64,000 bases of DNA from positions 1,030,613-1,094,612 of the forward strand of contig JBAZEK010000001.1 in assembly GCA_041653995.1 (NCBI GenBank), written 5' to 3'. Position 1 is the first letter of the stretch, and every line of letters starts with the position of its first letter. This DNA comes from Dehalococcoidia bacterium (GTDB taxonomy: Bacteria > Chloroflexota > Dehalococcoidia > GIF9 > UBA5629). The translations under genes were made by a program, and so were the position numbers. Of the stretch, positions 16,352 to 47,266 are shown one piece after another. Under the pieces are notes generated by a model. That model had not been told where the DNA came from, made no database searches, and was given only the letters and a program-made list of their open reading frames with translations.

Positions 16352-16378
16352 CGTACCTTTATACAGAGGTTACTTTCG

Positions 16379-29600: not shown

Positions 29601-29661
29601 TAGCAATCCATTATGAACCCGCAGGCAGGGCAGAATGACTATGCTATGATAGATACTCACA

Positions 29662-30966: not shown

Positions 30967-31005
30967 CAATCATTATCTTTGGCTTTGCCGCTCCCTTTGA
31001 CGCTC

Positions 31006-31029
31006 GCCCGCCCGGTTGCGGGCCGTTTT
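31006..31029 (+). terminator. possible intrinsic terminator
   Basis: gcccgc-ccggtt-gcgggc followed by cgTTTTg. Confidence 0.35.
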
Positions 31030-31038
31030 GATCTGGGT

Positions 31039-31275
31039 TTACATGATGTAGGGCGTGCGGCAGCATTTAAGTGCAACACGATGAGAACATATGGTGGGCG
31101 ATACTGGATTTGAACCAGTGACCCCCTGTGTGTAAGACAGGTAAAAACCTTTAATTGACTGGAGCTTATTGATAATCTCTAGGGAAGCCTTACGTTGTCC
31201 TGAAAGAATCATGCTCAAATAGCTTTTACTGATACCTAATTCTTTGGCTAATTGACTCTGTGTTAACTTTTTCAT
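31039..31275 (-). CDS. HTH protein = putative N-terminal fragment of the split integrase (Int-N)
   Basis: ATG 31275 abuts the xis-like stop. HTH 'LTQSQLAKELGISKSYLSMILSG'. Residues 49-61 are encoded by the att/tRNA copy and the last 17 aa by host flank. Confidence 0.6.
   Translation of the reverse strand: MKKLTQSQLAKELGISKSYLSMILSGQRKASLEIINKLQSIKGFYLSYTQGVTGSNPVSPTICSHRVALKCCRTPYIM
31092..31142. repeat. att site (distal copy): 3' 51 nt of tRNA-Val(UAC) without the 5' half
   Basis: 'tggtgggcgatactggatttgaaccagtgaccccctgtgtgtaagacaggt' is identical to 43144-43194. Confidence 0.95.
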
Positions 31276-31530
31276 TTATTTCACCCGCCTTTTTATATCC
31301 TTTAAGCCTGCGTTTCCAATTATCGGTAAATATTGGTACGACTTCTTCTGTCTTCCTTTTGCACTAAAGTTCCCCTGTGGTTTTCTCACAAAATGACAGT
31401 CTACCTCATCAATAAGCCATCTCCGTCCAATGTAGAGTGCATTAATCCGTCCCTCTGACAAAAGCTTACGAACCCGTCTCTCAGATATACCAAGCCTTTC
31501 TGCTGCCTGTGGAACCGTAAGTAGTTTCAT
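31276..31530 (-). CDS. excisionase-family DNA-binding protein (Xis-like)
   Basis: 'LLTVPQAAERLGISERRVRKLLSEGRINALYIGRRWLI' is the typical excisionase/MerR-type HTH_17 pattern. Confidence 0.7.
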   Translation of the reverse strand: MKLLTVPQAAERLGISERRVRKLLSEGRINALYIGRRWLIDEVDCHFVRKPQGNFSAKGRQKKSYQYLPIIGNAGLKDIKRRVK

Positions 31531-31706
31531 TCAATTACCTTCTATCATTTTAATATTATACCGTTATCGGAATAATGTCAAGTATAATTACAAGCTAAAA
31601 TATCTTTTCTTTTTGCCGCATTTTTCCATAATACTCCGCAGAATTTTTTCAAATCGTATTTAAATTAAGTTTTAAAAGTTCAAGAATGAGGGTTTATAAT
31701 ATGCAT

Positions 31707-31817
31707 ATAAACTGGAAGCATATGGAAGGAAGCACGATAGAAAGTTAGAACGTAAGCAAGCGAGTAAGCAAGAAGGAAAGCAGGCGAGCAGGGAAGCTAT
31801 GTTGCTTTCCTTTTTTT
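31707..31817 (+). ncRNA. candidate ~110-nt purine-rich small RNA or leader ending in an intrinsic terminator
   Basis: TATAAT at 31695-31700. Five GGA motifs. 8-bp stem ggaaagca/tgctttcc (31775-82 / 31803-10) followed by T7. Confidence 0.3.
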
Positions 31818-31841
31818 AATTTTTTGATTCGGAGGTACGAA

Positions 31842-32057
31842 ATGACTGAAAACAAGGTCAAGGAAATTAGATTGAGCAAATGCATGAATCAGAGAGAACT
31901 GGCAGAGAGAGCTCATATCTGTCAAACAGCTATTTCAGACATTGAAAGGGGGGTAAGACTACCATGGAAAGCAGCGTCTGAAAAGCTTGCTATTGCATTG
32001 GGTGTCACAATCGAGGAATTATTCCCAAACAATCTTAGGGGAGGTAAAAATTGCTAA
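31842..32057 (+). CDS. Cro/CI-type XRE HTH regulator
   Basis: ATG 31842 after GGAGG. 'MNQRELAERAHICQTAISDIERGVRLP'. Divergent from xis-int. Confidence 0.75.
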   Translation: MTENKVKEIRLSKCMNQRELAERAHICQTAISDIERGVRLPWKAASEKLAIALGVTIEELFPNNLRGGKNC

Positions 32058-32398
32058 ACAAAAATAGAACGTCTTTAAAGCTGGGAAACAAGAAAGTAGG
32101 CTACTTTGAAGGTGATAAATTCATCAAACCCGTAATCGGCTCAAAGCATCTGCTGAAATTTCCTTACCAAGCTTGGGCAATTGATGCCAAAGTATTTGAC
32201 GATGAAATTAAACCTAACGCCAATTATTTTATTGTAAGAGATAGGGAGTCGGGGCTTGAATATAGTTGTACGGTAAAGGACTTCGACAATTTAAAGCGAA
32301 CCATTAACAGAGGGTATGGTAAGCAGTACAGTCTATCTCTAAAACATTGGAAAATAGCAGCTATGGAAGACGCTGAAGCTTCCAGTAACGCAACATAG
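32051..32398 (+). CDS. hypothetical protein
   Basis: 115-aa ORF with TTG start after GGAGG, overlapping the cro-like stop by 7 nt. No recognisable motifs. Confidence 0.5.
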   Translation: MLNKNRTSLKLGNKKVGYFEGDKFIKPVIGSKHLLKFPYQAWAIDAKVFDDEIKPNANYFIVRDRESGLEYSCTVKDFDNLKRTINRGYGKQYSLSLKHWKIAAMEDAEASSNAT

Positions 32399-32579
32399 AG
32401 TAGTGCAGCACCCGTTTTAGTAGTTGGAGGTGCTGTGTAAAAATGGTATTAGACAGAAGGAAAAGGCTGATGGAGGAGGGTATGACTCGCCATGATATTT
32501 CAGGAGCCTACTTATTTAATCAATTCAAGTGAGTTGTAATAGATGGTCATACCTATTCGATGGTCTTAAGGAGGAAAAT

Positions 32580-33026
32580 ATGATTCAGGGCATAGAAAAT
32601 TATATAAATTTAACAGATACCAAGAATGAATGGGCAAAATTTCTAAATGGCTTTGAATGGCATTGGTTCTTTACTCTCACATTTGATAAAAAGGTAAGTG
32701 ATGACTTGGCATACAAGCAATTCTTTAGGTGGAAGAATTGGATAAAGAGTTCAGTAGGACACAGAATTTTCTATCTAATTATTCCTGAGCGTCCCAAGTA
32801 TAAGGGAGATAATACTCATATTCATGGATTTCTTAATGGTGTTGAAAATGAGAAACCCTACATATGGAGAAGGAAATGGGAGGCAATGGCAGGCTTTTCT
32901 CGGATTCAACCCTATGATAGTTCAAGGGGTGCAAGCTATTATCTAGCGGATAAAATTGTATTTAAAGAAGAGGATATTTATCATAGCAAAGACCTAAATA
33001 TGATAAAGATAAATACACTCAATTAA
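32580..33026 (+). CDS. HUH-superfamily rolling-circle replication initiator (Rep)-like protein
   Basis: ATG 32580 after AAGGAGG. Motif I 'FFTLTF', motif II 'THIHGFL' (HUH), motif III 'YYLADK'. Confidence 0.55.
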   Translation: MIQGIENYINLTDTKNEWAKFLNGFEWHWFFTLTFDKKVSDDLAYKQFFRWKNWIKSSVGHRIFYLIIPERPKYKGDNTHIHGFLNGVENEKPYIWRRKWEAMAGFSRIQPYDSSRGASYYLADKIVFKEEDIYHSKDLNMIKINTLN

Positions 33027-33117
33027 ATCCATTATATATATCAATATGATTATTACTACAAACATCAATATTTATTTCTTTTACTTTTACTTTTCCTTAT
33101 GCCCCTTTTTTATTTTT

Positions 33118-33172
33118 GCCCCAAATATGAATTAAATATAAATATCTACAATTAATTGCATAAAATTGGGGC
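33118..33172. other. hairpin (7-bp GC-rich stem, 41-nt AT-rich loop): candidate replication origin
   Basis: gccccaa (33118-24) pairs with ttggggc (33166-72). The loop holds 'taaatataaatatctacaa' (33133-51), which recurs at 34198-34216. Confidence 0.35.
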
Positions 33173-33231
33173 ATAGGGAAAAAATCACATATAAAATTCA
33201 AATAGAAAGTCAGGAGGAATCAGTAAGTAAA

Positions 33232-33858
33232 ATGAGTACAATAATTTCAAAACCTACGACAATTCAAATTAGCATGCTTGGGACACATGCCTTTTGTGAA
33301 TATAGGATATATCTTGAGCTTGTTATGGGTTTTAAAGCACGAGGTACACCAGAAATGCTTGAAGGCACAAAAGCACACTCAAGGATAAATACGATGGCTT
33401 TCTTAACGAGAGATTCAAATATTAGCATTGAGGATGCGTTGCTCCAAGCAGAGTCAGACGGAAGAGAAATAACAAAAAGGAACGTACGGGTAACAGGTAA
33501 GATACTACGTGGGAATATCGATGAAATTCACATTGGGCCAAAAGAAATTACGATTATAGATGATAAAAAATGGGCAGAGCATTATCCATCATATAAAAAT
33601 CAAGTCTTTGGCTATTGCCTTGCGTTTAAAGAACAATACAACCCAAAGCAGCCGATATACGGTGCCATAAAGAATTATCAGTCTGGAAAGGAAGTCTGGA
33701 AAAAACAATTTTCAGTTTTGGAAGAGGAATATATAAACGGCATTGTTCAAAGAATACTGGGGATAATTCGTGAGGATATCACTCCAAAACCCATTGGTGT
33801 TAGAGAAGTATGCTGGCAATGTGGATTTAAAAATTACTGCAATGTAAGGACACGATAG
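33232..33858 (+). CDS. Cas4-like PD-(D/E)XK nuclease with 4-Cys cluster
   Basis: N-terminal Cys 'HAFCEYRIYLE', 'IDEIH', 'IIDDKK', 'NQVFGY' (QxxxY), C-terminal 'CWQCGFKNYC' (C-x2-C-x5-C). AGGAGG upstream of ATG 33232. Confidence 0.6.
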   Translation: MSTIISKPTTIQISMLGTHAFCEYRIYLELVMGFKARGTPEMLEGTKAHSRINTMAFLTRDSNISIEDALLQAESDGREITKRNVRVTGKILRGNIDEIHIGPKEITIIDDKKWAEHYPSYKNQVFGYCLAFKEQYNPKQPIYGAIKNYQSGKEVWKKQFSVLEEEYINGIVQRILGIIREDITPKPIGVREVCWQCGFKNYCNVRTR

Positions 33859-33895
33859 CAAAATGGTGGAAAAAGGAAAAAGAAGAAACTAACTA

Positions 33896-34159
33896 CTATA
33901 CTGCCTTGAAACCCACAATAAAGTAATTTGATTTATCAAATATAAGTCTTATCTTGTGTTCTGAATTATCCTTGCCGGCCAGGGCAATTAAGAATGATAG
34001 CTTCTTTGGATTAGTAACTGTCTTAGAAATTGGACGATGGACAATAAAACCCTCAAGTTCAATCTTCACATATCTACAGCCAGTCTTCGGATATGGCAAA
34101 TCCTTCTCTTCCACAATATCTATATATTTGCATATGGCTGAATTTGTCCTTCTTGGCAT
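33896..34159 (-). CDS. hypothetical protein
   Basis: 87-aa ORF on the opposite strand, with purine-rich SD (AAGGGAAGAAAGGAA) upstream of the ATG. Confidence 0.4.
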   Translation of the reverse strand: MPRRTNSAICKYIDIVEEKDLPYPKTGCRYVKIELEGFIVHRPISKTVTNPKKLSFLIALAGKDNSEHKIRLIFDKSNYFIVGFKAV

Positions 34160-34503
34160 ATTTATTTCCTTTCTTCCCTTTTCCGCTAAATTTAAACTAA
34201 ATATAAATATCTACAAATTATTATATTAAATCCACAACCAAATTTGAATATGAATGCCACAGATAAATGGCGGAAAAGAAAAAGAGTCTTAGAGATATTA
34301 TTATTTTGTATTATTTTCTTTAATAGTCAGATAGCAAGTGTGGCTAAGGGCAATTTTACCTTTAAAAATATTGAATCTGGTTGTCATTTGTCTAGTGCTT
34401 TAAAAATAGAAAACCTTCACGTGTGAGAAATGCCAGTAGCACGTGTATTAGAAGCGGCATTTTAAATAAAATCTTAGCCCAAAGTCATAGCAAATATAGA
34501 TTG

Positions 34504-34532
34504 TTGCATGCGTCCTTTTAATACGATAGAAT
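34504..34532 (+). promoter_or_regulatory. promoter TTGCAT-17 nt-TAGAAT (copy A)
   Basis: Both hexamers and the spacing are conserved in the duplicated unit at 40413-40441. Confidence 0.5.
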
Positions 34533-34558
34533 ACGGTCAATGTAGTGAGGCTGGGGAG

Positions 34559-36502
34559 ATGAAATATTTACTTGCTTGTTTCATAGCACTATTCGTTATA
34601 TCAGCCTGTGCATCTCAAGTCCATGTTGGTGACCAAGCTCCAAACTTCACACTGACAGATATAAATGGTAAACGTATTAGTCTGCAAGATTTTCGTGGCA
34701 AGCAGGTTGTTCTTTATCTTTGGTTTTTATATTGTCCTGAATGTACAGAAGACCTTGCTGAGATTCAAGAGTTGAATAATAATAGTGACGAAAGAGTCAT
34801 TAAGTTCCTAACCATTAACCCAGAAAATTCATCAAAAGACGTTGCGGATTTTTTCACTAAAAATGGATATAGTTTCCCAGTTTTGTTTGATTTAGATGGA
34901 AGTATTTACAAGCAATATAATTTACGACCTCGGTCTGCACCCTACACAATAATTATTGCTCCTGATGGAAAGATTAACAATATTACAGTGGGGAATCTTC
35001 ATTATCAAGGTGGTTTAAAACGGTTAATTGGAGATAACGTAACATCCTTCAGTCCAAGTGCACAAACTCAAAAGACTCCAATAATTATCGTACCCAGTTT
35101 ACAATCTCATGGTGTCGATGAACTTGCTTATGTATCTAGCGAAACGAACACGAACTCTATATATGTCGTGAATGCAAACGGGGAATATATTGCTAACTCA
35201 TCTGGAAAAATGGATGCATTATACCATGTTAGTTGGTCGCCAAACGGAGATAAGATTATTTTTGAAGTGGTTAAAGATATCAATATAGACCAGAGAAATA
35301 TGACCCTTATTTCTTCGTCTGATATTTATTCTCTTGATATTAAAGACCATGAAGAGCGTAGACTTACTTCAAATTATCCGTATAGCAATTGTTCTCCCAC
35401 ATGGATTGAAGACGATAAAATCGTATTTTATTCAACAAGGGGAAGTTCGTATGGCAGTTTTTTACAAAATATATACATCATGAACGCAGACGGAAGTAAT
35501 CAGATAAATTTAACTAATTGTGCAGAGAATGTACCTATGGTATTAGAACCAATATTATCGCCTGACCACTTGTCTGCAGCATATATTACGGGTAAGTTAT
35601 TCGATGAAGATATATATGTGATAAACCTAGTGAATGGAAATAAATTTGAAATAGGCCATAATCCAACATTTGCACCCTGGACTTGGTGGTCTCCAAACAG
35701 TAAACAGATAGCGTATATATCTGCCTCTCTAAACGGGGGGCCTGAATCATTTTATCTCTACGATGTCGAAAAACAGAAACCGATAAAATACTATGATAGC
35801 CCTCAATCTTATTCTATTATGGAAATAGCATGGTCGCCAGACAGTAACAAAGTCGCTATTTTTGAAAAACCGCAGAGCTTGTATGTTTTAGATTGTCTGA
35901 GTTCCAAGTTTACAAAACTTGATGGGATATGTGACTGGGTAGTAGAGATGAAATGGATACCTAATAACCAACAAATAGCCATTATTGGTGACAGGTTTAC
36001 AAACAGAAACTTGTATGTAATTGATATTGGTGAGCAGAGTAAGCATAAAATCAATCCAGAGGGAACGGCAGTCGAGTCGTATCGATGGTCAACTGATAAT
36101 ACAAGAATCATTTATTGCTTAGATGATGGATATCTTTACACAACTTTCCTACCCAACTTAAATACCATAAAACTAATGCAACTTAATAAAAATACGATAA
36201 AAGGGTTAGCTTTGTCACCAGACGGTTTATTAATCGCTGTTGCTCTGAGTGACGATACTCTAACTGTAATTTCATTAAACAATAACAAGGTGTGCTTGTT
36301 AACTAATGATTATTACAATATTGGAGCAATTTCTTGGTCGCAAAACAGTAACATACTTGCATTTGAATACGGAACTTTATGGGATAGTCCGTTTGTATGC
36401 AGTAACATTCAAATCATCAATTTCGAAAACGAGGAACAGTTCATTAAATTAGATAAACCAATCTCAGGACGCTCTCCAATTTGGGCGAGAAAGGAAAAAT
36501 AA
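34559..36502 (+). CDS. lipoprotein: TlpA/ResA-like thioredoxin domain (CPEC) fused to TolB-like beta-propeller
   Basis: Signal 'MKYLLACFIALFVISAC'. 'VGDQAPNFTLTDINGKRISLQDFRGKQVVLYLWFLYCPEC'. Then >=8 PD40-like blades ('SWSPNGDKIIFE', 'WWSPNSKQIAYIS', 'AWSPDSNKVAIF', 'ALSPDGLLIAVA'). Confidence 0.75.
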   Translation: MKYLLACFIALFVISACASQVHVGDQAPNFTLTDINGKRISLQDFRGKQVVLYLWFLYCPECTEDLAEIQELNNNSDERVIKFLTINPENSSKDVADFFTKNGYSFPVLFDLDGSIYKQYNLRPRSAPYTIIIAPDGKINNITVGNLHYQGGLKRLIGDNVTSFSPSAQTQKTPIIIVPSLQSHGVDELAYVSSETNTNSIYVVNANGEYIANSSGKMDALYHVSWSPNGDKIIFEVVKDINIDQRNMTLISSSDIYSLDIKDHEERRLTSNYPYSNCSPTWIEDDKIVFYSTRGSSYGSFLQNIYIMNADGSNQINLTNCAENVPMVLEPILSPDHLSAAYITGKLFDEDIYVINLVNGNKFEIGHNPTFAPWTWWSPNSKQIAYISASLNGGPESFYLYDVEKQKPIKYYDSPQSYSIMEIAWSPDSNKVAIFEKPQSLYVLDCLSSKFTKLDGICDWVVEMKWIPNNQQIAIIGDRFTNRNLYVIDIGEQSKHKINPEGTAVESYRWSTDNTRIIYCLDDGYLYTTFLPNLNTIKLMQLNKNTIKGLALSPDGLLIAVALSDDTLTVISLNNNKVCLLTNDYYNIGAISWSQNSNILAFEYGTLWDSPFVCSNIQIINFENEEQFIKLDKPISGRSPIWARKEK

Positions 36503-36527
36503 GAAATTTCAAAAATGGAGACTGAAT

Positions 36528-36824
36528 ATGACTGGCGAATTGGGAAATTTTGTTATCGTCATGGGATTACCCTGTTTAGGAGCGCTGTTAATAGCTTTTT
36601 GTTCATTACCAACCGATAAATGGACAATAAAACACACTTTTATGTTGGTGGGAACTTCACTAATTTTTATTAGCTTTATTTTGCAAGCATATCAGATTAT
36701 TGATAAATACCCTGATAAAAATGAATATATATTTGGATGGTGGATTGTCGGTTTAGCTACCGTTATCATGGCTATAATAGGGCAAATTATTAGAATCAGA
36801 TACGGTAAAAGTTGGTTCCAATAG
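36528..36824 (+). CDS. small membrane protein (3 TM)
   Basis: 98-aa hydrophobic ORF, 26 nt after the upstream stop. Confidence 0.5.
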   Translation: MTGELGNFVIVMGLPCLGALLIAFCSLPTDKWTIKHTFMLVGTSLIFISFILQAYQIIDKYPDKNEYIFGWWIVGLATVIMAIIGQIIRIRYGKSWFQ

Positions 36825-36920
36825 GATAATAAAATAGTGGGAAAGGAAAGAGAAGGAAATTTAATTAGCTATCTATATTTAAGATAAGAGTGACTTATAG
36901 AACTTCATTGAGGTTGGGAG

Positions 36921-37451
36921 ATGCAACAACAGTATCAATGCCCTAATTGTAGGTATCCAGTTGCTTATGGGAATAATTTCTGTGGACATTGTAGACAACA
37001 ACTAATCTGGCAACAATTAATGCCACCTTCACCACCAGTACACCATCAGCAAACACCACAAGGCATTATTGGGAAATCACACGAGCAAAACACTTCTGGA
37101 CAAGGTGGTCAATCAATAATACCCGATGAAAAGCGTATTAAACTTCCAAAACTCAATATTCGTTTCGACTTTGAGTTGTTTCAAGCAATTGAGGACAATG
37201 ACCGTAAACTGGCTGAACAGCTCAAAGCAAAATATGGGGATGATGTTTATAATTCCAATTTTTATAACCTGCTTAGTATCGAAGACGCTAACTCAGTAGA
37301 CTCACTTCATCTTAAACTAGTATCAGTTGAAAAAATGAATTTCAATGATATTTTATGCGAAAGTATCAAAATAGAGACTGAAAAAGTACGCAAAAGGATA
37401 GAGGAGCTTGAGAATATAAAAAATTTACGCAACGGGATTGAGGAAGTGTAA
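36921..37451 (+). CDS. zinc-ribbon protein with Pro-rich linker and helical C-terminus
   Basis: 'MQQQYQCPNCRYPVAYGNNFCGHCRQQLIW'. Head is homologous to the host ORFs at 57880(-) and 58107(+). No TM helix. Confidence 0.65.
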   Translation: MQQQYQCPNCRYPVAYGNNFCGHCRQQLIWQQLMPPSPPVHHQQTPQGIIGKSHEQNTSGQGGQSIIPDEKRIKLPKLNIRFDFELFQAIEDNDRKLAEQLKAKYGDDVYNSNFYNLLSIEDANSVDSLHLKLVSVEKMNFNDILCESIKIETEKVRKRIEELENIKNLRNGIEEV

Positions 37452-37511
37452 GGAACTGACTAAACCCCTGAAACTGGCAGCTCGAGTAAGAAAAATGGCG
37501 GGAAAGAAAAT

Positions 37512-39368
37512 TTGATTTATATGTTATGGGATGATACGTATCGTAAAGATGCAGCGGAGTATGAAATCTATCTGCGTATGCATCATAAAGAAAAAAACGA
37601 TTACGAGAAGCTTTTATCTAATCTTGAACGTGAGTGGTCAGAAAAATCAGTTAAAGAAGAAAACTACATATCGCTTAAAAAGGAATACACAGCGAAACTA
37701 CAGGAAACAAAGAAGTACATTTCAAAGCTGAAATTCCAGATTACAGCACTCATTAAAAAATGTAATAAAGACATAGATAAAATCGATAGCCAAATTGAAC
37801 AAATTAAATTGCGGCACAAAGTTGGTGAATATTCAGAGGAGAAACTCAAAGAACTATTATCACCATCTGAAACAGAAAGAAGGCAATTTGAATCCTTAAT
37901 AATCGAACTGAAACGCATACATGGCTTGAAATATATACCTAAACCAACTACCGATGATGTTGTATCAGAAACAGAACCGAGTCAGCCTAGAAGGTCTCCT
38001 ATCCCAACGTCATCTACTTCTATTTCAACAGCTGAAGAGCAAGCCCCCGAAATATCAGCACCAATGAGTTTTGAAGAACCGCCTCCTATTTTGGTACCTG
38101 CTGTATTTAAAAAGTCTTCACCTGTAAGAGTAAAGAAGAGTCTGTGGATTATGGCTTCGATTACTATGTTTGTAATATTAATTCTCTGTTTTGTTATTTG
38201 GAATATAGAAGTGCATAAAAAGGTAATCCCTCAGATTGGAGACCAAGCTCCAAACTTCTCTCTCCCAGATATGAATGGTAAAACGGTTAACCTTCAGGAC
38301 TTTCACGGAAAGGGTGTTGTTCTTTACCTTTGGGACACATCATGTCCTTACTGCAAAAATGACCTTAGCTGGATAAATGAATTAAATGGCTGCACCTATG
38401 ACGAAGCAATAATATTTTTAACTATTAATATCTCAGATTCACGTGGAACAGCTATTAAATATTTTGAGGAAAATGGATATAGTATTCCCGTTTTAAATGA
38501 TATGCGTGGGACGGTTATTAAGCAGTATGTAAAGTACACCTTAGGCCATACGTATCCAGATACTATTCTTATTGGTTCAAATGGCCAGATTCGTAATGTA
38601 AAAGTCGGGCCCTTCCAAAGCAAGACTGAATTAAAAACATTTATAGAATCAGGTTTAACCCCCCGTTGGGATAATACTCCTCCACAAATTTATGATATTA
38701 ATCTTTCTAAGGCCTCTATTTTGAGTTGGAAAACGGATGAGGAAACACATAGTAATATACAAGGGTTTCGTAATAGTGTCGGAGGTGCTGGAGTCACTCT
38801 TGGTGAAAATTGGACAAGATATCATAGCGTAAATGAAACAGTTTGCACTAATGGCTACTATGACCAAATTCAAATCAACTCGTATGACCGCTGCGGTAAT
38901 TCTGCTTCAAAAGTTTTTACACTGCCCAACTGCATAAATTTAGGTTGTAGAGCTCCTGATTTCACAGCAACTTCAACTAATAATCAGGATATAACGCTGT
39001 CCGCAGTACCTAGCAAAATGACTCTACTTCACTTCTGGCTACTCGGATGTGGTGCATGTGAAAAGGAACTTCCATTAATCCAAAAACTATATTATGAGCG
39101 TCCTAGAGAAGAACTTGAGATATTGGCTGTGAATGTTAGAGGTGACATATACAGCATAAATGACTTCGTTACTGCAAATGGTTATAGATTAATTATTTTA
39201 CTAGATACAGAAGGCATAATAGATGCCGCCTATCATAATCCAAGGTTCCCCACAACCTTTTTATTGGATTGCAATAAGGTAATTATTAACAAGCATGACG
39301 GTGCCTTTCAAAATTATGAAGAAATCGTTGATTTTGTAGGTCAGTATCCAAAACTTCCTGGTAAATAG
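37512..39368 (+). CDS. coiled-coil / TM / thioredoxin (CPYC) / Fn3-like / thioredoxin (CGAC) protein
   Basis: 618 aa. TM 'LWIMASITMFVILILCFVIW'. 'IGDQAPNFSLPDMNGKTVNLQDFHGKGVVLYLWDTSCPYC', 'ILSWKTDEETHS', 'CRAPDFTATS...LLHFWLLGCGAC'. Start uncertain (TTG 37512, ATG 37521, or frameshifted ATG 37495). Confidence 0.7.
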   Translation: MIYMLWDDTYRKDAAEYEIYLRMHHKEKNDYEKLLSNLEREWSEKSVKEENYISLKKEYTAKLQETKKYISKLKFQITALIKKCNKDIDKIDSQIEQIKLRHKVGEYSEEKLKELLSPSETERRQFESLIIELKRIHGLKYIPKPTTDDVVSETEPSQPRRSPIPTSSTSISTAEEQAPEISAPMSFEEPPPILVPAVFKKSSPVRVKKSLWIMASITMFVILILCFVIWNIEVHKKVIPQIGDQAPNFSLPDMNGKTVNLQDFHGKGVVLYLWDTSCPYCKNDLSWINELNGCTYDEAIIFLTINISDSRGTAIKYFEENGYSIPVLNDMRGTVIKQYVKYTLGHTYPDTILIGSNGQIRNVKVGPFQSKTELKTFIESGLTPRWDNTPPQIYDINLSKASILSWKTDEETHSNIQGFRNSVGGAGVTLGENWTRYHSVNETVCTNGYYDQIQINSYDRCGNSASKVFTLPNCINLGCRAPDFTATSTNNQDITLSAVPSKMTLLHFWLLGCGACEKELPLIQKLYYERPREELEILAVNVRGDIYSINDFVTANGYRLIILLDTEGIIDAAYHNPRFPTTFLLDCNKVIINKHDGAFQNYEEIVDFVGQYPKLPGK

Positions 39369-39441
39369 ATAATTTCTTGATATTAAGAAATCGAGGTGTA
39401 CTGGTCTGAACCCCTGAAACTGGACAGCTTGAGTAAGAAAA

Positions 39442-39951
39442 ATGGCGGAAAAAGAAATGCAACAGGAGGAGCATCCCCTAAATATGGGGAAGCTACTTGT
39501 GAATTTCCAATCACTTGAGATAGCTCTCCGTCTATTTCTTTATAATGATGAAATTGCCTCTAGAGTTTCATCTCCTCAGGCGGTAAACCTAAATGCTATG
39601 AATGCGGGGGATATAGTAGCTGAAAATGCGTTCACAAACTATGATAGTCTAAGTCAACTCATTGATAAATATAATAACCATCCCAACATCATATCGACAG
39701 GTCTAACCATTGATAAGACTTTAGTGGACATACGTGATGCAATAGCTCATGGAAGAGTCGCTGGAGTCACTCCTTTGCTTGTGCCTCCTTTAAAACTAAT
39801 GAAGTTTGATAAACCAAAGAACAAAAGTGTGAAAGTAACATTTAGCGTTTTATTGACAAGGGAATGGTTCATTCTAGAGATGGCTAAGGTTCAAGATGCA
39901 GTTTTTAAAGTCTTTCAAGCTATCCAAATAATACAGAGTGCTAAGACATAA
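39442..39951 (+). CDS. hypothetical protein with RxxxxH (HEPN-like) motif
   Basis: 169 aa, predicted helical. 'VDIRDAIAHGRV' matches the Rx4-6H HEPN signature. Motif-level evidence only. Confidence 0.45.
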   Translation: MAEKEMQQEEHPLNMGKLLVNFQSLEIALRLFLYNDEIASRVSSPQAVNLNAMNAGDIVAENAFTNYDSLSQLIDKYNNHPNIISTGLTIDKTLVDIRDAIAHGRVAGVTPLLVPPLKLMKFDKPKNKSVKVTFSVLLTREWFILEMAKVQDAVFKVFQAIQIIQSAKT

Positions 39952-40412
39952 GTGGTGCCCTCTGAAATCGCTCTGAGGGGCTGAAATCAGGGTGTTGCAT
40001 ATTGAACATGACGGATTCCACCTGTCATTACTATTCCAGCTTAATTAGAGCCTTTAAAGTATTAAACAGTAAAGGTAATAACTCTACTTCCTTTCCCTTA
40101 AGCCCCTTTATTATTTCTTCGCCTAAGTTTCCGTTCAAGTGAATTATGTCGCTTTTAAGACCAACAAACGCTGGTACACCATAAACACGTTTACGTTCAA
40201 GCCAATTATGTCGTTTTGCATATATTATTTCCAGCTTAAATTAACTACAGAAAAATGGGGCAAAAAGAGAAAAAGGGGAATTATATATCAATTTATTGTC
40301 AATAATCTTTGAAATACTATTACTTCATCTGAGAGAGATGCCAGCAGCTAAGTGTAACGGCATTGAATTTTAAATAACTTCTCAGCCCAAAGTGGTAACG
40401 CATATAGGTCTA

Positions 40413-40441
40413 TTGCATAAGTATTGTTCATATAATAGAAT
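40413..40441 (+). promoter_or_regulatory. promoter TTGCAT-17 nt-TAGAAT (copy B)
   Basis: Same hexamers and spacing as 34504-34532. Followed by an identical 5' UTR and signal-peptide coding sequence. Confidence 0.5.
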
Positions 40442-40467
40442 ACGGTCAATGTAGTGAGGCTGGGGAG

Positions 40468-41880
40468 ATGAAATATTTACTTGCTTGTTTCATAGCACTA
40501 TTCGTTATATCAGCCTGCACACCAAATAACTCAATAAACAACGTTGAGACATTCCCAAAAATCGGAGATAAGATACCGAATATCTCATGGACTACTATCA
40601 ATGGCGAAAAGATTGATTTAAATCAGTTTAAAGGCAGTTGGGTGCTACTATGCTATTGGTGCTCTTGCCCTGTACATAGGAATGACATACTGACTATTCA
40701 TAATGTTTATGATTCATTATATGATAAGAATCTCGATGTCATTGTAATTAATGATACTTATGCTCAGATAGAATTAGAGGCATTTGGAAAACAAAACAAT
40801 GTACCGTTTTATTTAATTGAAGATAATCAAAAAACAATTGATAAACTTGTACCATTTGGCAACAGGCCAATATATCTCTTAATTGATGGGAGTGGGGATT
40901 TACATGCTATCGAAATAGGTACATTTCGCTCTGGCGAAAATAGCGTTAACAATGTAATCAATTTCCTTGATGATGTGATTAAGGTAAGAATCGATAATAT
41001 TACAGTCACTAATATTACTTCAAATAGGGCAACTGTGAGATGGAAAACAGATAAGGCAGTACCGTGTTGGTTGGAAATTCACCCCCAAGGTGACCCAATC
41101 GGAAAGTGCATCGGCAAGACAAATCCAAATACATTTCATGAATTGATATTAAACTGTAATCCCAACACAGCTTACACTTTTAACGTAGCTGCTAGTGGAT
41201 TAGATAATTCTTTAATTAACGATGCAAGCAATCGTAGTAGTGAATTTTCATTTCAAACATTACCAAATTGGGTTACTTCTTTATATGAGGTTGACTCTAC
41301 TAAACCAAAAATATCGAATGTTAAAGTTTCTATAATTACAGATACGAGTGCAGAGTTATATTGGGAAACTGATGTGGAAGCTCAAGTCACCGCTACAATC
41401 TGTAAATATATATCCAGTACTGATGCGCCCTTAAACTCCCAGAAAATTGATTTTATAGAAGACATATATTTTACAAAGAAACATAGCTTTACAATTAGCT
41501 CTCTTGAGCCAAGACGATTATATGACGTTGGTTTAAATGCCAAAGATAGAATGGGAAGGGTTGCCGATTACAGTGTCGAATTTTTAACACAACCTTCAAA
41601 TTATACTCACGGAGCGAAGATATCCAATATATCTTTATATGACATCACGGACAGGAGTGCTAAATTAAAATGGTCAACTGACAAGTCAGTATGGAGTTCA
41701 GCCTGCTATAAATATGAGTGCTCTTCTGGGGACATCAACACTGAGCATTCATATACACTATCCTATGGTCTGGAACCCGATACAGAATACTGGGTGCAAA
41801 TTCTAGCACATGGGGAATCGGTATCTGATGTATTCAACTTCAGAACATTAAAGACAACAGATAAGGTAGATATGAAATGA
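40468..41880 (+). CDS. lipoprotein: degenerate thioredoxin-like domain (WCSCP) plus three Fn3-like domains
   Basis: Identical signal 'MKYLLACFIALFVISAC'. 'IGDKIPNISWTTINGEKIDLNQFKGSWVLLCYWCSCP'. Fn3-like starts 'ITSNRATVRWKTDK', 'ITDTSAELYWETDV', 'ITDRSAKLKWSTDK'. Confidence 0.7.
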   Translation: MKYLLACFIALFVISACTPNNSINNVETFPKIGDKIPNISWTTINGEKIDLNQFKGSWVLLCYWCSCPVHRNDILTIHNVYDSLYDKNLDVIVINDTYAQIELEAFGKQNNVPFYLIEDNQKTIDKLVPFGNRPIYLLIDGSGDLHAIEIGTFRSGENSVNNVINFLDDVIKVRIDNITVTNITSNRATVRWKTDKAVPCWLEIHPQGDPIGKCIGKTNPNTFHELILNCNPNTAYTFNVAASGLDNSLINDASNRSSEFSFQTLPNWVTSLYEVDSTKPKISNVKVSIITDTSAELYWETDVEAQVTATICKYISSTDAPLNSQKIDFIEDIYFTKKHSFTISSLEPRRLYDVGLNAKDRMGRVADYSVEFLTQPSNYTHGAKISNISLYDITDRSAKLKWSTDKSVWSSACYKYECSSGDINTEHSYTLSYGLEPDTEYWVQILAHGESVSDVFNFRTLKTTDKVDMK

Positions 41881-41907
41881 AAGAAAATCAAAAGGGAGGT
41901 AAAGAAG

Positions 41908-42084
41908 ATGGTAGCAAATAAGAAGAAGTATTATGCAGGGGAATCAGCTAAAGTCTCTGGCAAATACAACGAATGCAGATTGGGCACAGGCAAAACAGGA
42001 GTAACAGCAAATGTCAAGAAGGGGGATACACTCCCACCACATAAAATAGGAGCTCATTGGGAGTTATCAAGAAAATCTAAATAA
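41908..42084 (+). CDS. small YjzC-like protein (58 aa)
   Basis: Not in the track (<60 aa). AAGGGAGG lies 8 nt upstream. 'GESAKVSGKYNE...VKKGDTLPPHKIGAHWEL' resembles the YjzC family pattern (from memory). Confidence 0.5.
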   Translation: MVANKKKYYAGESAKVSGKYNECRLGTGKTGVTANVKKGDTLPPHKIGAHWELSRKSK

Positions 42085-42316
42085 TATAGACATATTTAAG
42101 AAAGTGGTGACTTATAAAACTTCATGCTGTCCTGAAAGCTGAATGACCGAGTATATCTTTGCACCATAATAAAGTTCAGCCAAGGCACCGTTAAAATGTA
42201 CTACAGAATTGTTCTAAAGGGCCAAAATGGGGTATATAATATAGGGCATGACAGATTCTTCCTGCCTGAGCTTTTCAAGCTTAATTATTGAACAAATAAC
42301 TATGAAATCCTGATTG

Positions 42317-43081
42317 CTAACGAGGTAACTGATTTGAGCCGTTCACATCTTTGTAGACTTGAAGAGCATCCTCAAAGGATAAAGATTTTGAATACCTTTC
42401 AACCATAGAAATGCTTTCCCAACCGCCTAGATTTTGCACAATACGAGTGGATAACCCAGACTTAATATTGTGAATACAAAACCCTCTTCTATAGCTATGG
42501 GCGTTGGACTTAATGCCAGTTTCTTTAGACAATCGTTTAAGCATAGTTTTAATGCCAGCTCTTGATATTTCAAAACTATCATGCTCATCAAACCACTTTC
42601 CGATAACACCATTACCAGCTAAAGCCTTACGATACTTGTTACCCTTGCCCAGAATGGTTACTGTACCTTCACCCCAGTCAAAGTCTTTAGCGTGCACATT
42701 AGCACATTCACTCAGCCTTACTCCTGAGTACCATAAGAAACTAATTAATGCTCTATCACGTTCACAATGACAATGATTTATCAGAACTTCTAATTGTTCT
42801 TTTGATACCGCAGGCAATAGCTTCTTTTGAATTTTTGGGCTAGGAACTTTGTCAATAACCTTGTCGTGAATATAGCTATTGCTGTATAGCCATGAAATGA
42901 GAGTTTTGAGAGCTTGATAGAATCTTGCTTTGCCATTATGACAGGTAAGTGATTTTAGATAAGCATTAACTCCATCTGGACTTAGGGGATAACCAATAAA
43001 ATGAGTTAAAGTATATTCGTAAAATTCAATAGTTCGCTTACTACAACCATCGGGGCGAGAAGAAATAAACTTCTCCAACAA
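42317..43081 (-). CDS. tyrosine recombinase, C-terminal part of split integrase (Int-C)
   Basis: Catalytic residues in 'GVRLSE' (R), 'HSYRRGF' (HxxR) and 'MVERY' (Y). No ATG or SD (track start is TTG) and first Met codon is at residue 180. The frame stays open upstream through attR. Confidence 0.85.
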   Translation of the reverse strand: MLEKFISSRPDGCSKRTIEFYEYTLTHFIGYPLSPDGVNAYLKSLTCHNGKARFYQALKTLISWLYSNSYIHDKVIDKVPSPKIQKKLLPAVSKEQLEVLINHCHCERDRALISFLWYSGVRLSECANVHAKDFDWGEGTVTILGKGNKYRKALAGNGVIGKWFDEHDSFEISRAGIKTMLKRLSKETGIKSNAHSYRRGFCIHNIKSGLSTRIVQNLGGWESISMVERYSKSLSFEDALQVYKDVNGSNQLPR

Positions 43082-43143
43082 TTCTTTTGTGAACTTTTTG
43101 TAGCTAACTTGTGAATATTGTGAAATTGAGCTGTAGTTTTCTT

Positions 43144-43219
43144 TGGTGGGCGATACTGGATTTGAACCAGTGACCCCCTGTGTGTAAGACAGGTGCTCTA
43201 ACCGCTGAGCTAATCGCCC
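43144..43219 (-). tRNA. tRNA-Val (anticodon UAC), CCA encoded; integration target
   Basis: GGGCGATTAGCTCAGCGGTTAGAGCACCTGTCTTACACACAGGGGGTCACTGGTTCAAATCCAGTATCGCCCACCA. Anticodon loop CTTACAC. The 3' 51 nt form attR. Confidence 0.9.
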
Positions 43220-43226
43220 TGGGGAG

Positions 43227-43302
43227 TGGCACGCCTGGTGGGGCTTGAACCCACGGCCTCAGCCTCCGCAGGGCTGCGCTCTATCCACTGAGCTACAGGC
43301 GC
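43227..43302 (-). tRNA. tRNA-Arg (anticodon GCG), CCA encoded
   Basis: GCGCCTGTAGCTCAGTGGATAGAGCGCAGCCCTGCGGAGGCTGAGGCCGTGGGTTCAAGCCCCACCAGGCGTGCCA. Anticodon loop CTGCGGA. G1:U72 pair. Confidence 0.75.
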
Positions 43303-43308
43303 ATAAAA

Positions 43309-43397
43309 TGGTGCCGAAGGTGGGAGTTGAACCCACACATCCGTTACGGATACTACGCCCTGAACGTAGCGCGTCTGCCATTCCGCCACTTCGGCCC
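43309..43397 (-). tRNA. tRNA-Leu (anticodon CAG), long variable arm, CCA encoded
   Basis: GGGCCGAAGTGGCGGAATGGCAGACGCGCTACGTTCAGGGCGTAGTATCCGTAACGGATGTGTGGGTTCAACTCCCACCTTCGGCACCA. Confidence 0.9.
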
Positions 43398-43470
43398 TGG
43401 GCAGCACAGGATTTGAACCTGTGACCCCTTGCGTGTGAAGCAAGTGCTCTAACCGCTGAGCTAGCCGCCC
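43398..43470 (-). tRNA. tRNA-Val (anticodon CAC), CCA not encoded
   Basis: GGGCGGCTAGCTCAGCGGTTAGAGCACTTGCTTCACACGCAAGGGGTCACAGGTTCAAATCCTGTGCTGCCCA. Its discriminator base directly abuts the 5' end of tRNA-Leu. Confidence 0.9.
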
Positions 43471-43605
43471 TCTAACGCTATATTTTATTCTTTAACAAGG
43501 TTTAAAAGCAAGGCGAACCGCCCCGTACAATCATAGTTCATCAGGATTTATAAGCCCGCGCTGTGGACATCCCTCTACTCCAATGCATATAATTCAACTA
43601 CACCC

Positions 43606-44448: not shown

Positions 44449-44586
44449 CGGCATGTTTTTCTCCCCGAATTATTAAGTTTATTGATTTATTTAATACCTG
44501 TGTATATAATCAAGAAAATGGTTAAACATAGTCCGCCGGAAATACGTTTTCTCTATGGATAGTTATGGATGTGATGGAGAGATGAA

Positions 44587-45612: not shown

Positions 45613-45644
45613 CCCTCCTTTTCGCTGCGTTTACAGATTTTCTA

Positions 45645-46529: not shown

Positions 46530-46632
46530 TAGAAACGCACCCTGCCTCAAAGCCCGCGTAACATCCGACACCGATCATACATTGCTCCGGGCCCGCATTG
46601 GACATACAATATTAAGCATTTAAGGGATTATC

Positions 46633-46917: not shown

Positions 46918-46942
46918 TCATATAGCACTGCTGGAGAAGTAT

Positions 46943-47263: not shown

Positions 47264-47266
47264 CTG

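What the first reader, a model, noticed from the sequence alone, without database searches (positions are those of the whole stretch)
31092..43194. 12-kb AT-rich integrative element inserted in tRNA-Val(UAC)
A perfect 51-nt direct repeat (31092-31142 = 43144-43194) corresponds to the tRNA from the 5' arm of the anticodon stem to the CCA end. The right copy is part of an intact tRNA and the left copy is an orphan 3' fragment. The DNA in between is visibly AT-rich (hand count ~35% versus ~60% GC in sampled lines). It carries recombination (xis, int), regulation (cro-like), replication (HUH Rep) and nuclease (Cas4-like) genes plus cargo. I recognise no capsid, portal, terminase or conjugation genes, so it looks like an integrated rolling-circle plasmid-like element rather than a prophage or ICE.
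Basis: seen in the sequence. Interest (0 to 1): 0.7.

Follow-up and report, generated by a model that had tools for sequence, protein, structure and literature searches.

The report
Bacterial mobile element that splits its integrase
A 12-kb plasmid-like mobile element sits in a valine tRNA gene of a Dehalococcoidia bacterium, and inserting there cut its own integrase gene in two, an arrangement a 2021 review describes as found only in archaea.

Summary
A perfect 51-nt repeat (31092-31142 = 43144-43194) is the 3' part of an intact tRNA-Val(UAC). It brackets 12,052 bp of 36% GC DNA in a 54% GC Dehalococcoidia genome. A related metagenome contig (L191) has the same flanks joined across a single core copy, so it is the empty site.

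The cargo is three paralogous exported thioredoxin-fold proteins. No phage structural family matches any ORF, and no Walker-A motif occurs in any frame. "Integrated rolling-circle plasmid-like element" is therefore supported.

The 78-aa HTH ORF at the left end and the integrase at the right end both read through the tRNA core in the same frame. Joined, as in the circle, they form one 336-aa HTH-linker-integrase gene that contains attP.

Relatives confirm this. One metagenome contig carries the unsplit gene. In 13 of 14 related Dehalococcoidia loci, spanning at least seven different tRNA cores plus one non-tRNA core, the two halves rejoin in frame. Int(C) has no start codon of its own.

This matches the layout of archaeal SSV-type "suicidal" integrases, but the protein is Xer-like and the host is a bacterium.

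The parts
31092..31142 (.). attL core: the displaced, orphan 3' fragment of tRNA-Val(UAC), 51 nt
   Evidence: It is an exact copy of 43144-43194. ARAGORN calls no tRNA here.
31039..31275 (-). Int(N): a 78-aa ORF with the HTH_3 domain (aa 1-45), then 17 aa encoded by the att core, then a 16-aa tail read from host DNA
   Evidence: Pfam HTH_3 at E 1.2e-10. It reads through the core in the same frame as Int(C). Databases hold it as P0273, 'helix-turn-helix transcriptional regulator [Dehalococcoidia bacterium]'.
31276..31530 (-). xis-like excisionase-family HTH_17 protein (84 aa). Its stop codon abuts the Int(N) start codon.
   Evidence: Pfam HTH_17 at E 2.8e-10 and PHROG excisionase families. The same xis-then-int order is seen in L002 and other relatives.
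31531..31823 (.). Divergent intergenic region between xis-int(N) and the cro-like gene; putative switch region
   Evidence: Promoter-like hexamers face both ways, at 31581-31553 (-) and 31671-31700 (+). These are consensus matches only.
31824..32057 (+). cro/cI-like HTH_3 regulator (77 aa)
   Evidence: Pfam HTH_3 at E 5.9e-10; PHROG repressor families.
32051..32398 (+). ORF of 115 aa, unknown function
   Evidence: No Pfam, PHROG, PADLOC or PDB match.
32580..33026 (+). Minimal HUH rolling-circle Rep (148 aa from the ATG; the ORF opens at GTG 32529)
   Evidence: PF23343 at 28.0 bits (cut-off 27.8), and 39 of 40 relatives match. Motifs I (TLTF), II (HxH) and III (YYLxK) are conserved. The AF2 model has pLDDT 88.7. 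The best, though weak, PDB fold matches are circovirus and parvovirus Rep nuclease domains.
33166..33858 (+). Stand-alone Cas4-family PD-(D/E)xK nuclease with four Cys (probable start near 33232)
   Evidence: PADLOC Cas4 at E 9.6e-15 over the full length. Pfam Cas_Cas4 and PDDEXK_1. The gene is called as 208 aa in L210.
33896..34159 (-). ORF of 87 aa, unknown function
   Evidence: No family match.
34508..36502 (+). Cargo 1: lipoprotein with a TlpA-like thioredoxin domain (CPEC) and a beta-propeller
   Evidence: AhpC-TSA at E 1e-24, Redoxin, and PD40/WD40-type propeller hits. The lipobox 'VISAC' is visible in the sequence.
36528..36824 (+). Small hydrophobic membrane protein (98 aa)
   Evidence: The sequence is hydrophobic. 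No family match.
36921..37451 (+). Zinc-ribbon protein (176 aa)
   Evidence: Weak DZR/zinc-ribbon hits.
37512..39368 (+). Cargo 2: coiled coil, transmembrane segment and two thioredoxin domains (CPYC, CGAC)
   Evidence: AhpC-TSA at E 3.8e-38 over two stretches. It is paralogous to cargo 1 (43% identity).
39442..39951 (+). ORF of 169 aa, unknown function
   Evidence: No significant match.
40468..41880 (+). Cargo 3: lipoprotein with a thioredoxin-like domain and FN3 domains
   Evidence: AhpC-TSA at E 1.6e-12 and fn3 at E 7.6e-13. Its signal-peptide DNA is 92% identical to that of cargo 1 (D4).
41908..42084 (+). Small ORF of 58 aa (weak YjzC-like; phrog_3202)
42317..43143 (-). Int(C): the core-binding and catalytic domains of a Xer-like tyrosine recombinase. 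The frame is open upstream into the att core. There is no ATG, and the first start-like codon is TTG at 43081, inside the first conserved helix.
   Evidence: Phage_integrase at E 3.3e-21. The translation is open through the tRNA. R204, K228, H277, R280, W303 and Y312 are invariant in the family alignment. Start-codon census.
43144..43194 (.). attR core, forming the 3' part of the regenerated tRNA
43144..43219 (-). Intact tRNA-Val(UAC), the integration target
   Evidence: ARAGORN; Rfam 74.2 bits.

Best explanation
This is a 12,052-bp integrative element without virion or conjugation genes. It is best read as the integrated form of a small rolling-circle replicon, in a Dehalococcoidia (Chloroflexota) chromosome. 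In the circular form, one operon encodes a xis-like protein followed by a 336-aa integrase. The integrase has an N-terminal Cro/CI-type HTH domain, a ~30-aa linker, and Xer-like core-binding and catalytic domains. The linker's coding DNA is the attP core, a copy of the 3' 51 nt of tRNA-Val(UAC). Recombination with the chromosomal tRNA regenerates the tRNA and cuts the integrase gene in two. The crossover point is inferred to be in the anticodon stem-loop. Int(N) stays under its promoter at the left end as a 78-aa HTH protein with a new tail. Int(C) ends up 12 kb away, directly downstream of the tRNA operon, without a promoter or start codon of its own. The integrated copy therefore cannot make full-length integrase. 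Excision would need integrase supplied in trans or residual Int(C) activity (inferred). Shown here: the repeat, the empty site, the shared reading frame, the unsplit relative, the family-wide pattern and the domain identities. Inferred: rolling-circle replication by the 148-aa HUH Rep using host helicase and polymerase, a replication or recombination role for Cas4, a host-benefit or surface role for the three exported thioredoxin-fold proteins, and the route of cell-to-cell transfer (unknown).
For: Repeat, tRNA and GC. Empty site in L191.

Same frame through both core copies, giving one 336-aa ORF on joining.

Unsplit homologue: P0012/L002 is 324 aa, carries HTH_3 plus Phage_integrase, and is preceded by an overlapping xis-like gene. 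Inside its ORF lies a 44-nt tRNA-Glu 5'-half sequence identical to the att core of the integrated relative L011.

Family-wide pattern: in 36 further loci Int(C) starts about 15-100 nt after a tRNA gene. In 13 of 14 loci that hold both ends, joining across a 22-58-nt exact repeat restores a 316-363-aa ORF. The cores come from at least seven different tRNA halves, read sense or antisense, plus one non-tRNA core.

No start codon for Int(C): 34 of 37 loci have no in-frame ATG between the upstream stop and 20 aa into the core-binding domain.

All 108 Int(N) homologues in the 5.8-billion-protein database are 60-119-aa stand-alone HTH proteins.

The AF2 model of P0012 shows the attP-encoded segment (aa 40-72) without secondary structure at pLDDT 30-36, between folded domains.

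Host: the family's close relatives are almost all in Dehalococcoidia/Chloroflexota MAGs. The window's own Rep and Int(N) are named as Dehalococcoidia MAG proteins. Bacterial host genes are present, including HtrA and an HD-GYP c-di-GMP phosphodiesterase.

Rep, Cas4 and absence of structural genes. IMG/VR holds no close integrase relative.
Against: No circular junction (attP) of this particular element was found. All 48 metagenome contigs with the exact core carry an intact tRNA, and the other assemblies of the element are integrated.

Unsplit genes are rare: one clean case (P0012) and one frameshifted case (L038).

Int(C) holds a complete Xer-like core-binding plus catalytic unit (it aligns to P. 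abyssi XerA residues 13-264). A TTG at 43081 could in principle start a truncated but active enzyme.

The low pLDDT of the linker may partly reflect a shallow alignment there.

Replication by Rep, any activity of the element and its transfer route are untested.
Confidence: 0.8

Rival explanations
1. The HTH ORF and the integrase are two independent genes. The integrase is a complete small Xer-like enzyme that starts at TTG 43081 (or at a start inside the tRNA-derived stretch), and the shared reading frame across the att core is coincidence.
For: Int(C) contains whole core-binding and catalytic domains. Gene callers do-300-aa products for many relatives. Small integrases without an arm-binding domain exist; Brujita gp33 (5vfz) is among the PDB hits.
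Against: P0012 is a single 324-aa HTH-integrase ORF. The frames match and stay open in 13 of 14 loci plus the window, across at least seven unrelated tRNA cores and one non-tRNA core. My rough estimate of the chance expectation is about 0.03 per locus, from one frame in three times the probability of about 33 stop-free codons in AT-rich DNA. Thirty-four of 37 loci have no in-frame ATG. The TTG at 43081 cuts into the conserved FTxELLEKF helix and has no visible Shine-Dalgarno sequence.
Confidence: 0.05
2. The element is an integrated provirus, either a filamentous (inovirus-like) or a membrane-enveloped pleomorphic virus. Its virion proteins would be hidden among the exported and lipoproteins and the small membrane protein.
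For: The Rep family PF23343 is the one used by inoviruses and plectroviruses. IMG/VR relatives of this Rep (~30% identity) sit next to a Zot morphogenesis ATPase. The element has three large exported proteins and a 98-aa membrane protein.
Against: There is no Zot/pI ATPase and no Walker-A motif in any frame. No PHROG structural family matches. The large proteins are bona fide thioredoxin-fold (AhpC/TSA E 1e-12 to 1e-38) with CxxC motifs. The integrase family is absent from IMG/VR. Thirteen related elements carry no structural genes.
Confidence: 0.06
3. The element is an integrative mobilizable element. The HUH protein acts as a relaxase at an oriT rather than as a replication initiator, and transfer depends on a helper conjugative system.
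For: From general knowledge of integrative mobilizable elements, rolling-circle initiator-type proteins can serve as relaxases. The element itself has no transfer machinery.
Against: No coupling protein, T4SS gene or helper element is seen in the window (one search lists the large ORFs; one search scanned ten of them against NCBIfam). The Rep belongs to a family annotated for replication. Related elements carry AAA_25 helicase-type replication genes instead, which points to a replication module at this position.
Confidence: 0.1
4. The element is a dead remnant that is permanently fixed and decaying.
For: The integrase gene is split. Relatives show decay: L004 and L007 are frameshifted, L209 keeps only Int fragments, and L189 is an integrase-less island at the same site.
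Against: The repeats are perfect at 51 of 51 bases. Both integrase halves are intact and in frame, and the main ORFs (Rep, Cas4 and the three large cargo genes) read uninterrupted. The element is absent from a close relative whose left flank is 96% identical, so the insertion is recent.
Confidence: 0.12

Closest known systems
Archaeal SSV-type (type I, 'suicidal') integrases: SSV1, pTN3, pT26-2
   Same: attP lies inside the integrase ORF. Integration into a tRNA gene splits the gene into a short Int(N) and an Int(C) that carries the catalytic domain. The elements are small plasmids or viruses, and related members target many different tRNAs (PMC7253208, PMC8371274).
   Different: The host is bacterial (Dehalococcoidia). 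The protein matches only PF00589 and is closest to Xer-type recombinases, not the PF16795 domain that the review reports for the archaeal suicidal families, so an independent origin is likely. Int(N) is a Cro/CI-type HTH domain. An excisionase-like gene sits directly upstream. Some members use the 5' half of the tRNA read antisense.
Bacterial phages whose attP overlaps the 3' end of int: Myxococcus Mx8 IntP, and Burkholderia phi52237, phiE202 and phiK96243
   Same: These are bacterial integrases whose ORF extends across attP, so integration changes or truncates the gene (PMC6070905, PMC4383910, PMC2920897).
   Different: There, only the C-terminal tail is exchanged, and the prophage gene keeps its start codon and its catalytic domain. 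Here the cut lies in the 5' third and removes the promoter, the start codon and a whole DNA-binding domain.
Integration-dependent immunity of mycobacteriophages (BPs, Brujita, cluster P)
   Same: A small Xer-like integrase without a lambda-type arm domain is combined with attP inside an HTH-protein coding sequence, so integration creates a shortened HTH protein (PMC4557955). Brujita gp33 is among the closest solved structures.
   Different: In the phages the repressor and the integrase are separate genes, and the integrase stays intact. Here the HTH is fused to the integrase. A repressor role for Int(N) is only a hypothesis.
Low-GC genomic islands in tRNA genes of Dehalococcoides (for example the bvcA island at tRNA-Arg with a 58-bp repeat)
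   Same: Same bacterial class, same island signature of tRNA 3' direct repeat, low GC and an integrase (PMC2764846).
   Different: The passages of that paper read here mention no split integrase. The cargo there is reductive dehalogenases; here it is thioredoxin-fold surface proteins.
Small rolling-circle replicons with PF23343 (ORF2/G2P) HUH initiators
   Same: The three HUH motifs and the family match.
   Different: The protein is a minimal 148-aa nuclease domain only. It is combined with a stand-alone Cas4 and a tRNA-targeting integrase, and there is no Zot or coat genes, unlike the inovirus-like IMG/VR relatives.

Membership tests
tRNA-integrated genomic island / integrative element | An intact tRNA at one end, a displaced tRNA fragment in direct orientation at the other end, and an integrase in between | tested here: met
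tRNA-integrated genomic island / integrative element | An unoccupied site in a related genome with the flanks joined across one core copy | tested here: met
   In L191 the two alignments overlap by exactly 51 nt.
tRNA-integrated genomic island / integrative element | An excised circular form (attP junction) of this element | tested here: not met
   None is found among 48 metagenome contigs with the core or in other assemblies. Raw reads could not be searched.
Self-splitting ('suicidal', SSV-type architecture) integrase | attP lies inside the integrase ORF; the two halves flank the integrated element and rejoin in frame | tested here: met
   Window. Relatives: 13 of 14. Unsplit P0012 with an attP core identical to that of L011.
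Self-splitting ('suicidal', SSV-type architecture) integrase | Int(C) carries the catalytic domain and lacks its own start codon | tested here: met
Self-splitting ('suicidal', SSV-type architecture) integrase | The split halves are inactive, so excision needs intact integrase | not testable with these tools
   This needs recombination assays.
SSV/pTN3/pT26-2 integrase protein family (homology) | Phage_integr_3 (PF16795) domain, as the review reports for the suicidal families; archaeal host | tested here: not met
   Pfam reports only PF00589 for Int(C) at E <= 0.1. The best solved relatives are XerA and XerD. The hosts are Dehalococcoidia.
Tyrosine recombinase | The catalytic R-K-H-R-(H/W)-Y residues | tested here: met
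   R204, K228, H277, R280, W303 and Y312 are invariant in 16 sequences.
HUH rolling-circle Rep (PF23343) | Motifs I, II (HUH) and III (catalytic Y), and the family score | tested here: met
   Motifs are conserved across 40 sequences. The score is 28.0 bits against a cut-off of 27.8, and 39 of 40 relatives match.
HUH rolling-circle Rep (PF23343) | HUH nuclease fold | tested here: inconclusive
   The model has pLDDT 88.7. The top Foldseek hits are PCV2 Rep at E 5e-3 and TM 0.38-0.50, which is weak, and ribosomal protein S6-like folds score similarly.
HUH rolling-circle Rep (PF23343) | A cognate double-strand origin with a nick site | tested here: inconclusive
   Only AT-rich imperfect inverted repeats lie near rep. 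No origin could be assigned.
Cas4 nuclease | PD-(D/E)xK core plus four Cys for an Fe-S cluster, and a full-length profile match | tested here: met
   PADLOC Cas4 at E 9.6e-15, residues 33-225 against model positions 1-167 of 168. The sequence has one N-terminal Cys and a C-terminal CxxCx5C.
Prophage (tailed, micro-, ino- or pleolipo-like) | Capsid, portal, terminase, coat or morphogenesis ATPase genes | tested here: not met
   No hits. No Walker-A motif.
ICE / conjugative element | T4SS, coupling protein, relaxase | tested here: not met
   None is found. A relaxase role for the HUH protein is not excluded.

The most novel reading that the evidence does not exclude
Dehalococcoidia carry a bacterial, independently evolved family of self-splitting integrases in which the split acts as a switch. 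Integration converts the integrase's N-terminal Cro/CI-type HTH domain into a free-standing DNA-binding protein, still transcribed with xis. That protein could act as an immunity or maintenance regulator. At the same time integration silences the catalytic half. Because the attP-encoded segment is only a disordered linker, the family can swap tRNA targets, in either orientation and using either tRNA half, simply by replacing the linker.
Probability: 0.35. Interest if true: 0.8.

Novelty: new variant of a known kind. Interest (0 to 1): 0.68.

Why it matters
The 2021 review of archaeal tyrosine recombinases states that recombinases which disrupt their own gene occur exclusively in archaea (PMC8371274), and it builds evolutionary arguments on that. 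A family that is Xer-derived rather than SSV-related, found here in more than 35 Dehalococcoidia loci, would show that this architecture arose at least twice and outside hyperthermophilic archaea. That gives a second system for asking why an element would cut its own integrase.

There is also a practical consequence. Annotation pipelines label the two halves as an 'XRE-family regulator' and as an integrase, with some called ORFs starting inside the tRNA-derived sequence. The window's own Int(C) has no 100% match among the called proteins in the database. Such elements and their boundaries are therefore easy to miss.

Apart from the split integrase, the element is an ordinary small island.

Tried and rejected
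1. Search for the circular junction or other copies using the 51-nt core in JGI metagenomes. All 48 hits were intact tRNAs, and none had a family integrase adjacent. The scan yielded the empty site but no attP.

2. The Logan contig L001 breaks inside the core and is uninformative.

3. L031 looked like a full-length unsplit gene by tblastn. It is only an open frame running through host DNA and an antisense tRNA-Gly, so it was rejected.

4. IMG/VR scan with the integrase: only 21-28% identical generic recombinases.

5. The window's Rep, Cas4, cro and cargo are absent from about 50 loci that carry the related integrase. The family is therefore defined by its integration module, not by a shared backbone. 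Only L209 shares Rep and xis.

6. I tested whether the cargo was captured from neighbouring host genes. There is no similarity beyond short zinc-ribbon motifs.

7. PDB sequence searches for Rep, Cas4, the 115-aa ORF and the 169-aa ORF gave nothing significant.

8. An archaeal host was considered because of the SSV-like layout. It was rejected on host gene content and on the taxonomy of the relatives.

9. No convincing replication origin could be assigned from inverted repeats.


Full report
**Observation.** The repeat is real and exact. Positions 31092-31142 equal 43144-43194 (51 nt), and the neighbouring bases differ on both sides. The right copy runs from one base before the anticodon stem to the CCA end of tRNA-Val(tac) at 43144-43219 on the minus strand. 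This tRNA is the last gene of a Val(cac)-Leu-Arg-Val(tac) cluster. ARAGORN does not call the left copy as a tRNA, and Rfam gives it only a weak 32-bit pseudo-tRNA hit. GC is 36.1% between the repeats and 53.8% elsewhere in the window.

**Empty site.** A scan of JGI metagenomes with the 51-nt core returned 48 contigs, all with an intact tRNA-Val. In one of them, L191, the sequence matching window 29630-31142 (95.9% identity) is directly followed by the sequence matching window 43144-47440 (84.6%). The two alignments share exactly the 51-nt core. A second contig, L189, has the same flanks at 97% identity. It holds a different 4.36-kb island without an integrase, bounded by a 46-nt tRNA repeat. 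The site is a hot spot.

**Host.** The window's own Rep and left-end HTH protein are in public databases as proteins of a Dehalococcoidia bacterium MAG, on a 1.28-Mb contig. Flanking genes include HtrA, an EmrB-type transporter, KatG and an HD-GYP c-di-GMP phosphodiesterase. The host is a bacterium.

**Gene content.** From left to right the element holds the following:
- an HTH_3 ORF of 78 aa (-)
- an HTH_17 excisionase-like ORF (-)
- a cro-like HTH_3 (+)
- a 115-aa unknown
- Rep
- Cas4
- an 87-aa unknown (-)
- three large exported proteins with AhpC/TSA-type thioredoxin domains carrying CxxC motifs. These domains are fused to a beta-propeller in the first, to a second thioredoxin domain behind a coiled coil and membrane anchor in the second, and to FN3 domains in the third.
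- a small membrane protein, a zinc-ribbon protein, a 169-aa unknown and a 58-aa ORF, interspersed among the cargo genes
- a tyrosine recombinase (-)

The thioredoxin domains are paralogues of each other, and two of the cargo genes share a 92% identical signal-peptide segment.

**Rep.** An exhaustive HMMER search found 476 relatives, mostly 130-230 aa. Their alignment shows motif I (TLTF), motif II (HxH) and an invariant Tyr in YYLxK. Thirty-nine of 40 match PF23343, and the window protein scores 28.0 bits against a cut-off of 27.8. The AlphaFold model is confident (pLDDT 88.7). Its best PDB matches are circovirus and parvovirus Rep nuclease domains, but the scores are weak.

**Cas4.** The protein matches the full-length PADLOC model at E 1e-14.

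**Absence of virion and transfer genes.** No ORF matches a phage structural family in PHROGs or Pfam. No Walker-A motif occurs in any of the six frames. That excludes terminases, Zot-type morphogenesis ATPases, conjugative ATPases and helicases.

**The split integrase.** The integrase frame does not begin near the enzyme's N-terminus. Translating upstream from 43081, it stays open through the whole att core and into the tRNA (...LSYTQGVTGSNPVSPT-KENYSS...KELLEKF...). It has no ATG, GTG or TTG until the TTG at 43081, which already lies inside the first conserved helix. At the other end, the 78-aa HTH ORF reads into the left core copy in the same frame (...KGFY-LSYTQGVTGSNPVSPT-ICSHRV...*). Joining the element's ends across one core, as in the circle, gives a single 336-aa ORF. 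It consists of an HTH domain, a linker encoded by attP, and then the core-binding and catalytic domains. The xis-like gene abuts its start codon.

**Support from relatives.** The reconstructed protein finds 447 homologues, and the named ones come from Chloroflexota and Dehalococcoidia. P0012 is a 324-aa protein with both HTH_3 and Phage_integrase domains, sitting on a metagenome contig (L002) behind an overlapping HTH_17 gene. Inside that ORF lies a 44-nt stretch that is the antisense 5' half of tRNA-Glu(ctc). The stretch is identical to the att core flanking the integrated relative L011. The family thus provides attP, attL and attR.

A scan of one genome per GTDB species gave 53 close loci, almost all in Dehalococcoidia, Dehalococcoidales or Chloroflexota MAGs. 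Beyond them only generic 21-30% identical recombinases were found.

In 36 of these loci the Int(C) match starts about 15-100 nt after a tRNA gene. The tRNAs are Val, Ala, Gly, Met and Arg in sense orientation, and Glu, Gly and Ala in antisense orientation. In 14 loci an Int(N) HTH lies on the same strand 2.4-8.3 kb away, followed by a 22-58-nt exact copy of the tRNA part. Joining across that repeat restores a 316-363-aa ORF in 13 of the 14.

By my rough estimate, a chance frame match with about 33 stop-free codons in AT-rich DNA has a probability near 0.03 per locus. The cores come from at least seven unrelated tRNA halves plus one non-tRNA core. Only selection on a continuous gene in the circular form explains this.

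Thirty-four of 37 integrated loci have no in-frame ATG before the core-binding domain. All 108 database homologues of Int(N) are 60-119-aa stand-alone 'XRE regulators'. The AlphaFold model of P0012 shows the attP-encoded residues 40-72 without secondary structure at pLDDT 30-36, between folded domains. This is suggestive only, because the alignment is shallow in that region.

**Related elements.** Elements with the related integrase are 2.5-8.3 kb, and the window's is the largest found. They share only the xis-int module with it. A Pfam census of 75 of their ORFs finds HTH_17, AAA_25 helicase-type replication proteins, methylases, a TIR-Shedu protein, ThyX and IS transposases. It finds no virion or conjugation genes.

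The window's Rep and xis recur in L209 at 65% and 81% identity. There the element sits next to tRNA-Ala(tgc) and its integrase has decayed. The homologous tRNA-Ala site in the window (7332-7407) is empty.

More distant Rep relatives in IMG/VR (~30% identity) sit beside a Zot ATPase in inovirus-like contigs. A filamentous-provirus reading is therefore kept as a low-probability rival, and the absence of any P-loop protein argues against it.

**Mechanism.** Shown:
- integration at the tRNA, with the tRNA regenerated
- physical separation of Int(N) from Int(C)
- continuity of the two halves in the circular form
- the same pattern across the family

Inferred:
- crossover in the anticodon stem-loop, because the identity block starts at the anticodon stem and both the 3'-half and 5'-half cores include it
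- loss of integrase production after integration, so excision depends on integrase supplied in trans or on residual Int(C) activity. The same is discussed for archaeal elements (PMC8371274).
- rolling-circle replication of the episome by Rep with host enzymes
- continued expression of xis and Int(N) from the divergent promoter region 31531-31823, where only consensus promoter matches were seen

The route of cell-to-cell transfer is unknown.

**Comparison with known systems.** The layout is that of archaeal SSV-type 'suicidal' integrases, which the 2021 review says are found exclusively in archaea. By sequence this integrase is not a member of that family. It matches only PF00589, and its closest solved relatives are P. 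abyssi XerA, XerD and Brujita gp33.

Bacterial precedents exist for attP overlapping the 3' end of int, in Mx8 and in Burkholderia P2-like phages. In those cases only the C-terminal tail changes. Mycobacteriophage integration-dependent immunity places attP inside a separate repressor gene. The present family combines features of both: the HTH is fused to the integrase, and integration sets it free.

I found no paper describing this in bacteria or in Dehalococcoidia. The literature search covers only open-access full text, so a prior report cannot be excluded.

**Verdict.** The island itself is an ordinary small integrative replicon with unusual thioredoxin-fold cargo. What raises the interest is the self-splitting integrase: a bacterial, probably convergent, variant of an architecture thought to be archaeal.

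Noticed in passing
L189:2081-6482 (JGI Ga0172375_10023833); corresponds to window 31092/43144: In a genome with 97% identical flanks, the same tRNA-Val(UAC) site holds a different 4.36-kb island. It is bounded by a 46-nt tRNA repeat and has no integrase. Its ORFs are 586, 207 and 438 aa. The site is a hot spot, and islands without an integrase persist there.
   Followed up: partly
L209:8867-17100; window 7332-7407: A relative of the window's element (Rep 65% identical, xis 81%) lies next to tRNA-Ala(tgc) in another Dehalococcoidia genome. Only fragments of its integrase are left. The homologous tRNA-Ala site in the window is unoccupied.
   Followed up: partly
L003, L010, L011, L015, L016, L034 (tRNA-Glu-ctc, tRNA-Gly-gcc): Some family members use the 5' half of the tRNA as the att core, read antisense by the integrase ORF. 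The element then lies upstream of the regenerated tRNA and would have to supply its promoter.
   Followed up: partly
L028:2674-16392: This appears to be a tandem array at tRNA-Met. The intact tRNA is at 2674-2748, a core fragment lies at 9987-10034 in front of Int(C), and a second core copy lies at 16345-16392 after Int(N).
   Followed up: no
L043:403-451 and 6366-6414: One family member has a 49-nt att core that is not a tRNA, tmRNA or any Rfam family. The two integrase halves still rejoin in frame (352 aa).
   Followed up: partly
window 44587-45612 (+): A host protein has an N-terminal double zinc ribbon, about 16 tandem 18-nt repeats encoding PQQPGY, and a C-terminal FN3/purple-acid-phosphatase-N-like domain. 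It lies just beyond the tRNA cluster.
   Followed up: no
window 34504-34608 and 40413-40517; 33097-33166 and 34162-34231; 37478-37511 and 39425-39458: There are internal repeats within the element. A 105-nt segment, 92% identical, covers the lipoprotein signal peptides of two cargo genes. Two AT-rich repeats of 70 nt and 34 nt lie upstream of genes and may be duplicated promoter or RBS regions.
   Followed up: no
window 31095-31160 (-): Rfam aligns the orphan core plus 18 nt of adjacent element DNA to the whole tRNA model at 32.4 bits (gathering score 29). The element side of attL keeps some tRNA-like sequence beyond the exact 51-nt core.
   Followed up: no
L003:1-1765: Two integrase genes of the family lie in tandem on either side of tRNA-Glu(ctc), at 1-839 and 932-1765. 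This suggests elements inserted on both sides of one tRNA, or a tandem array.
   Followed up: no
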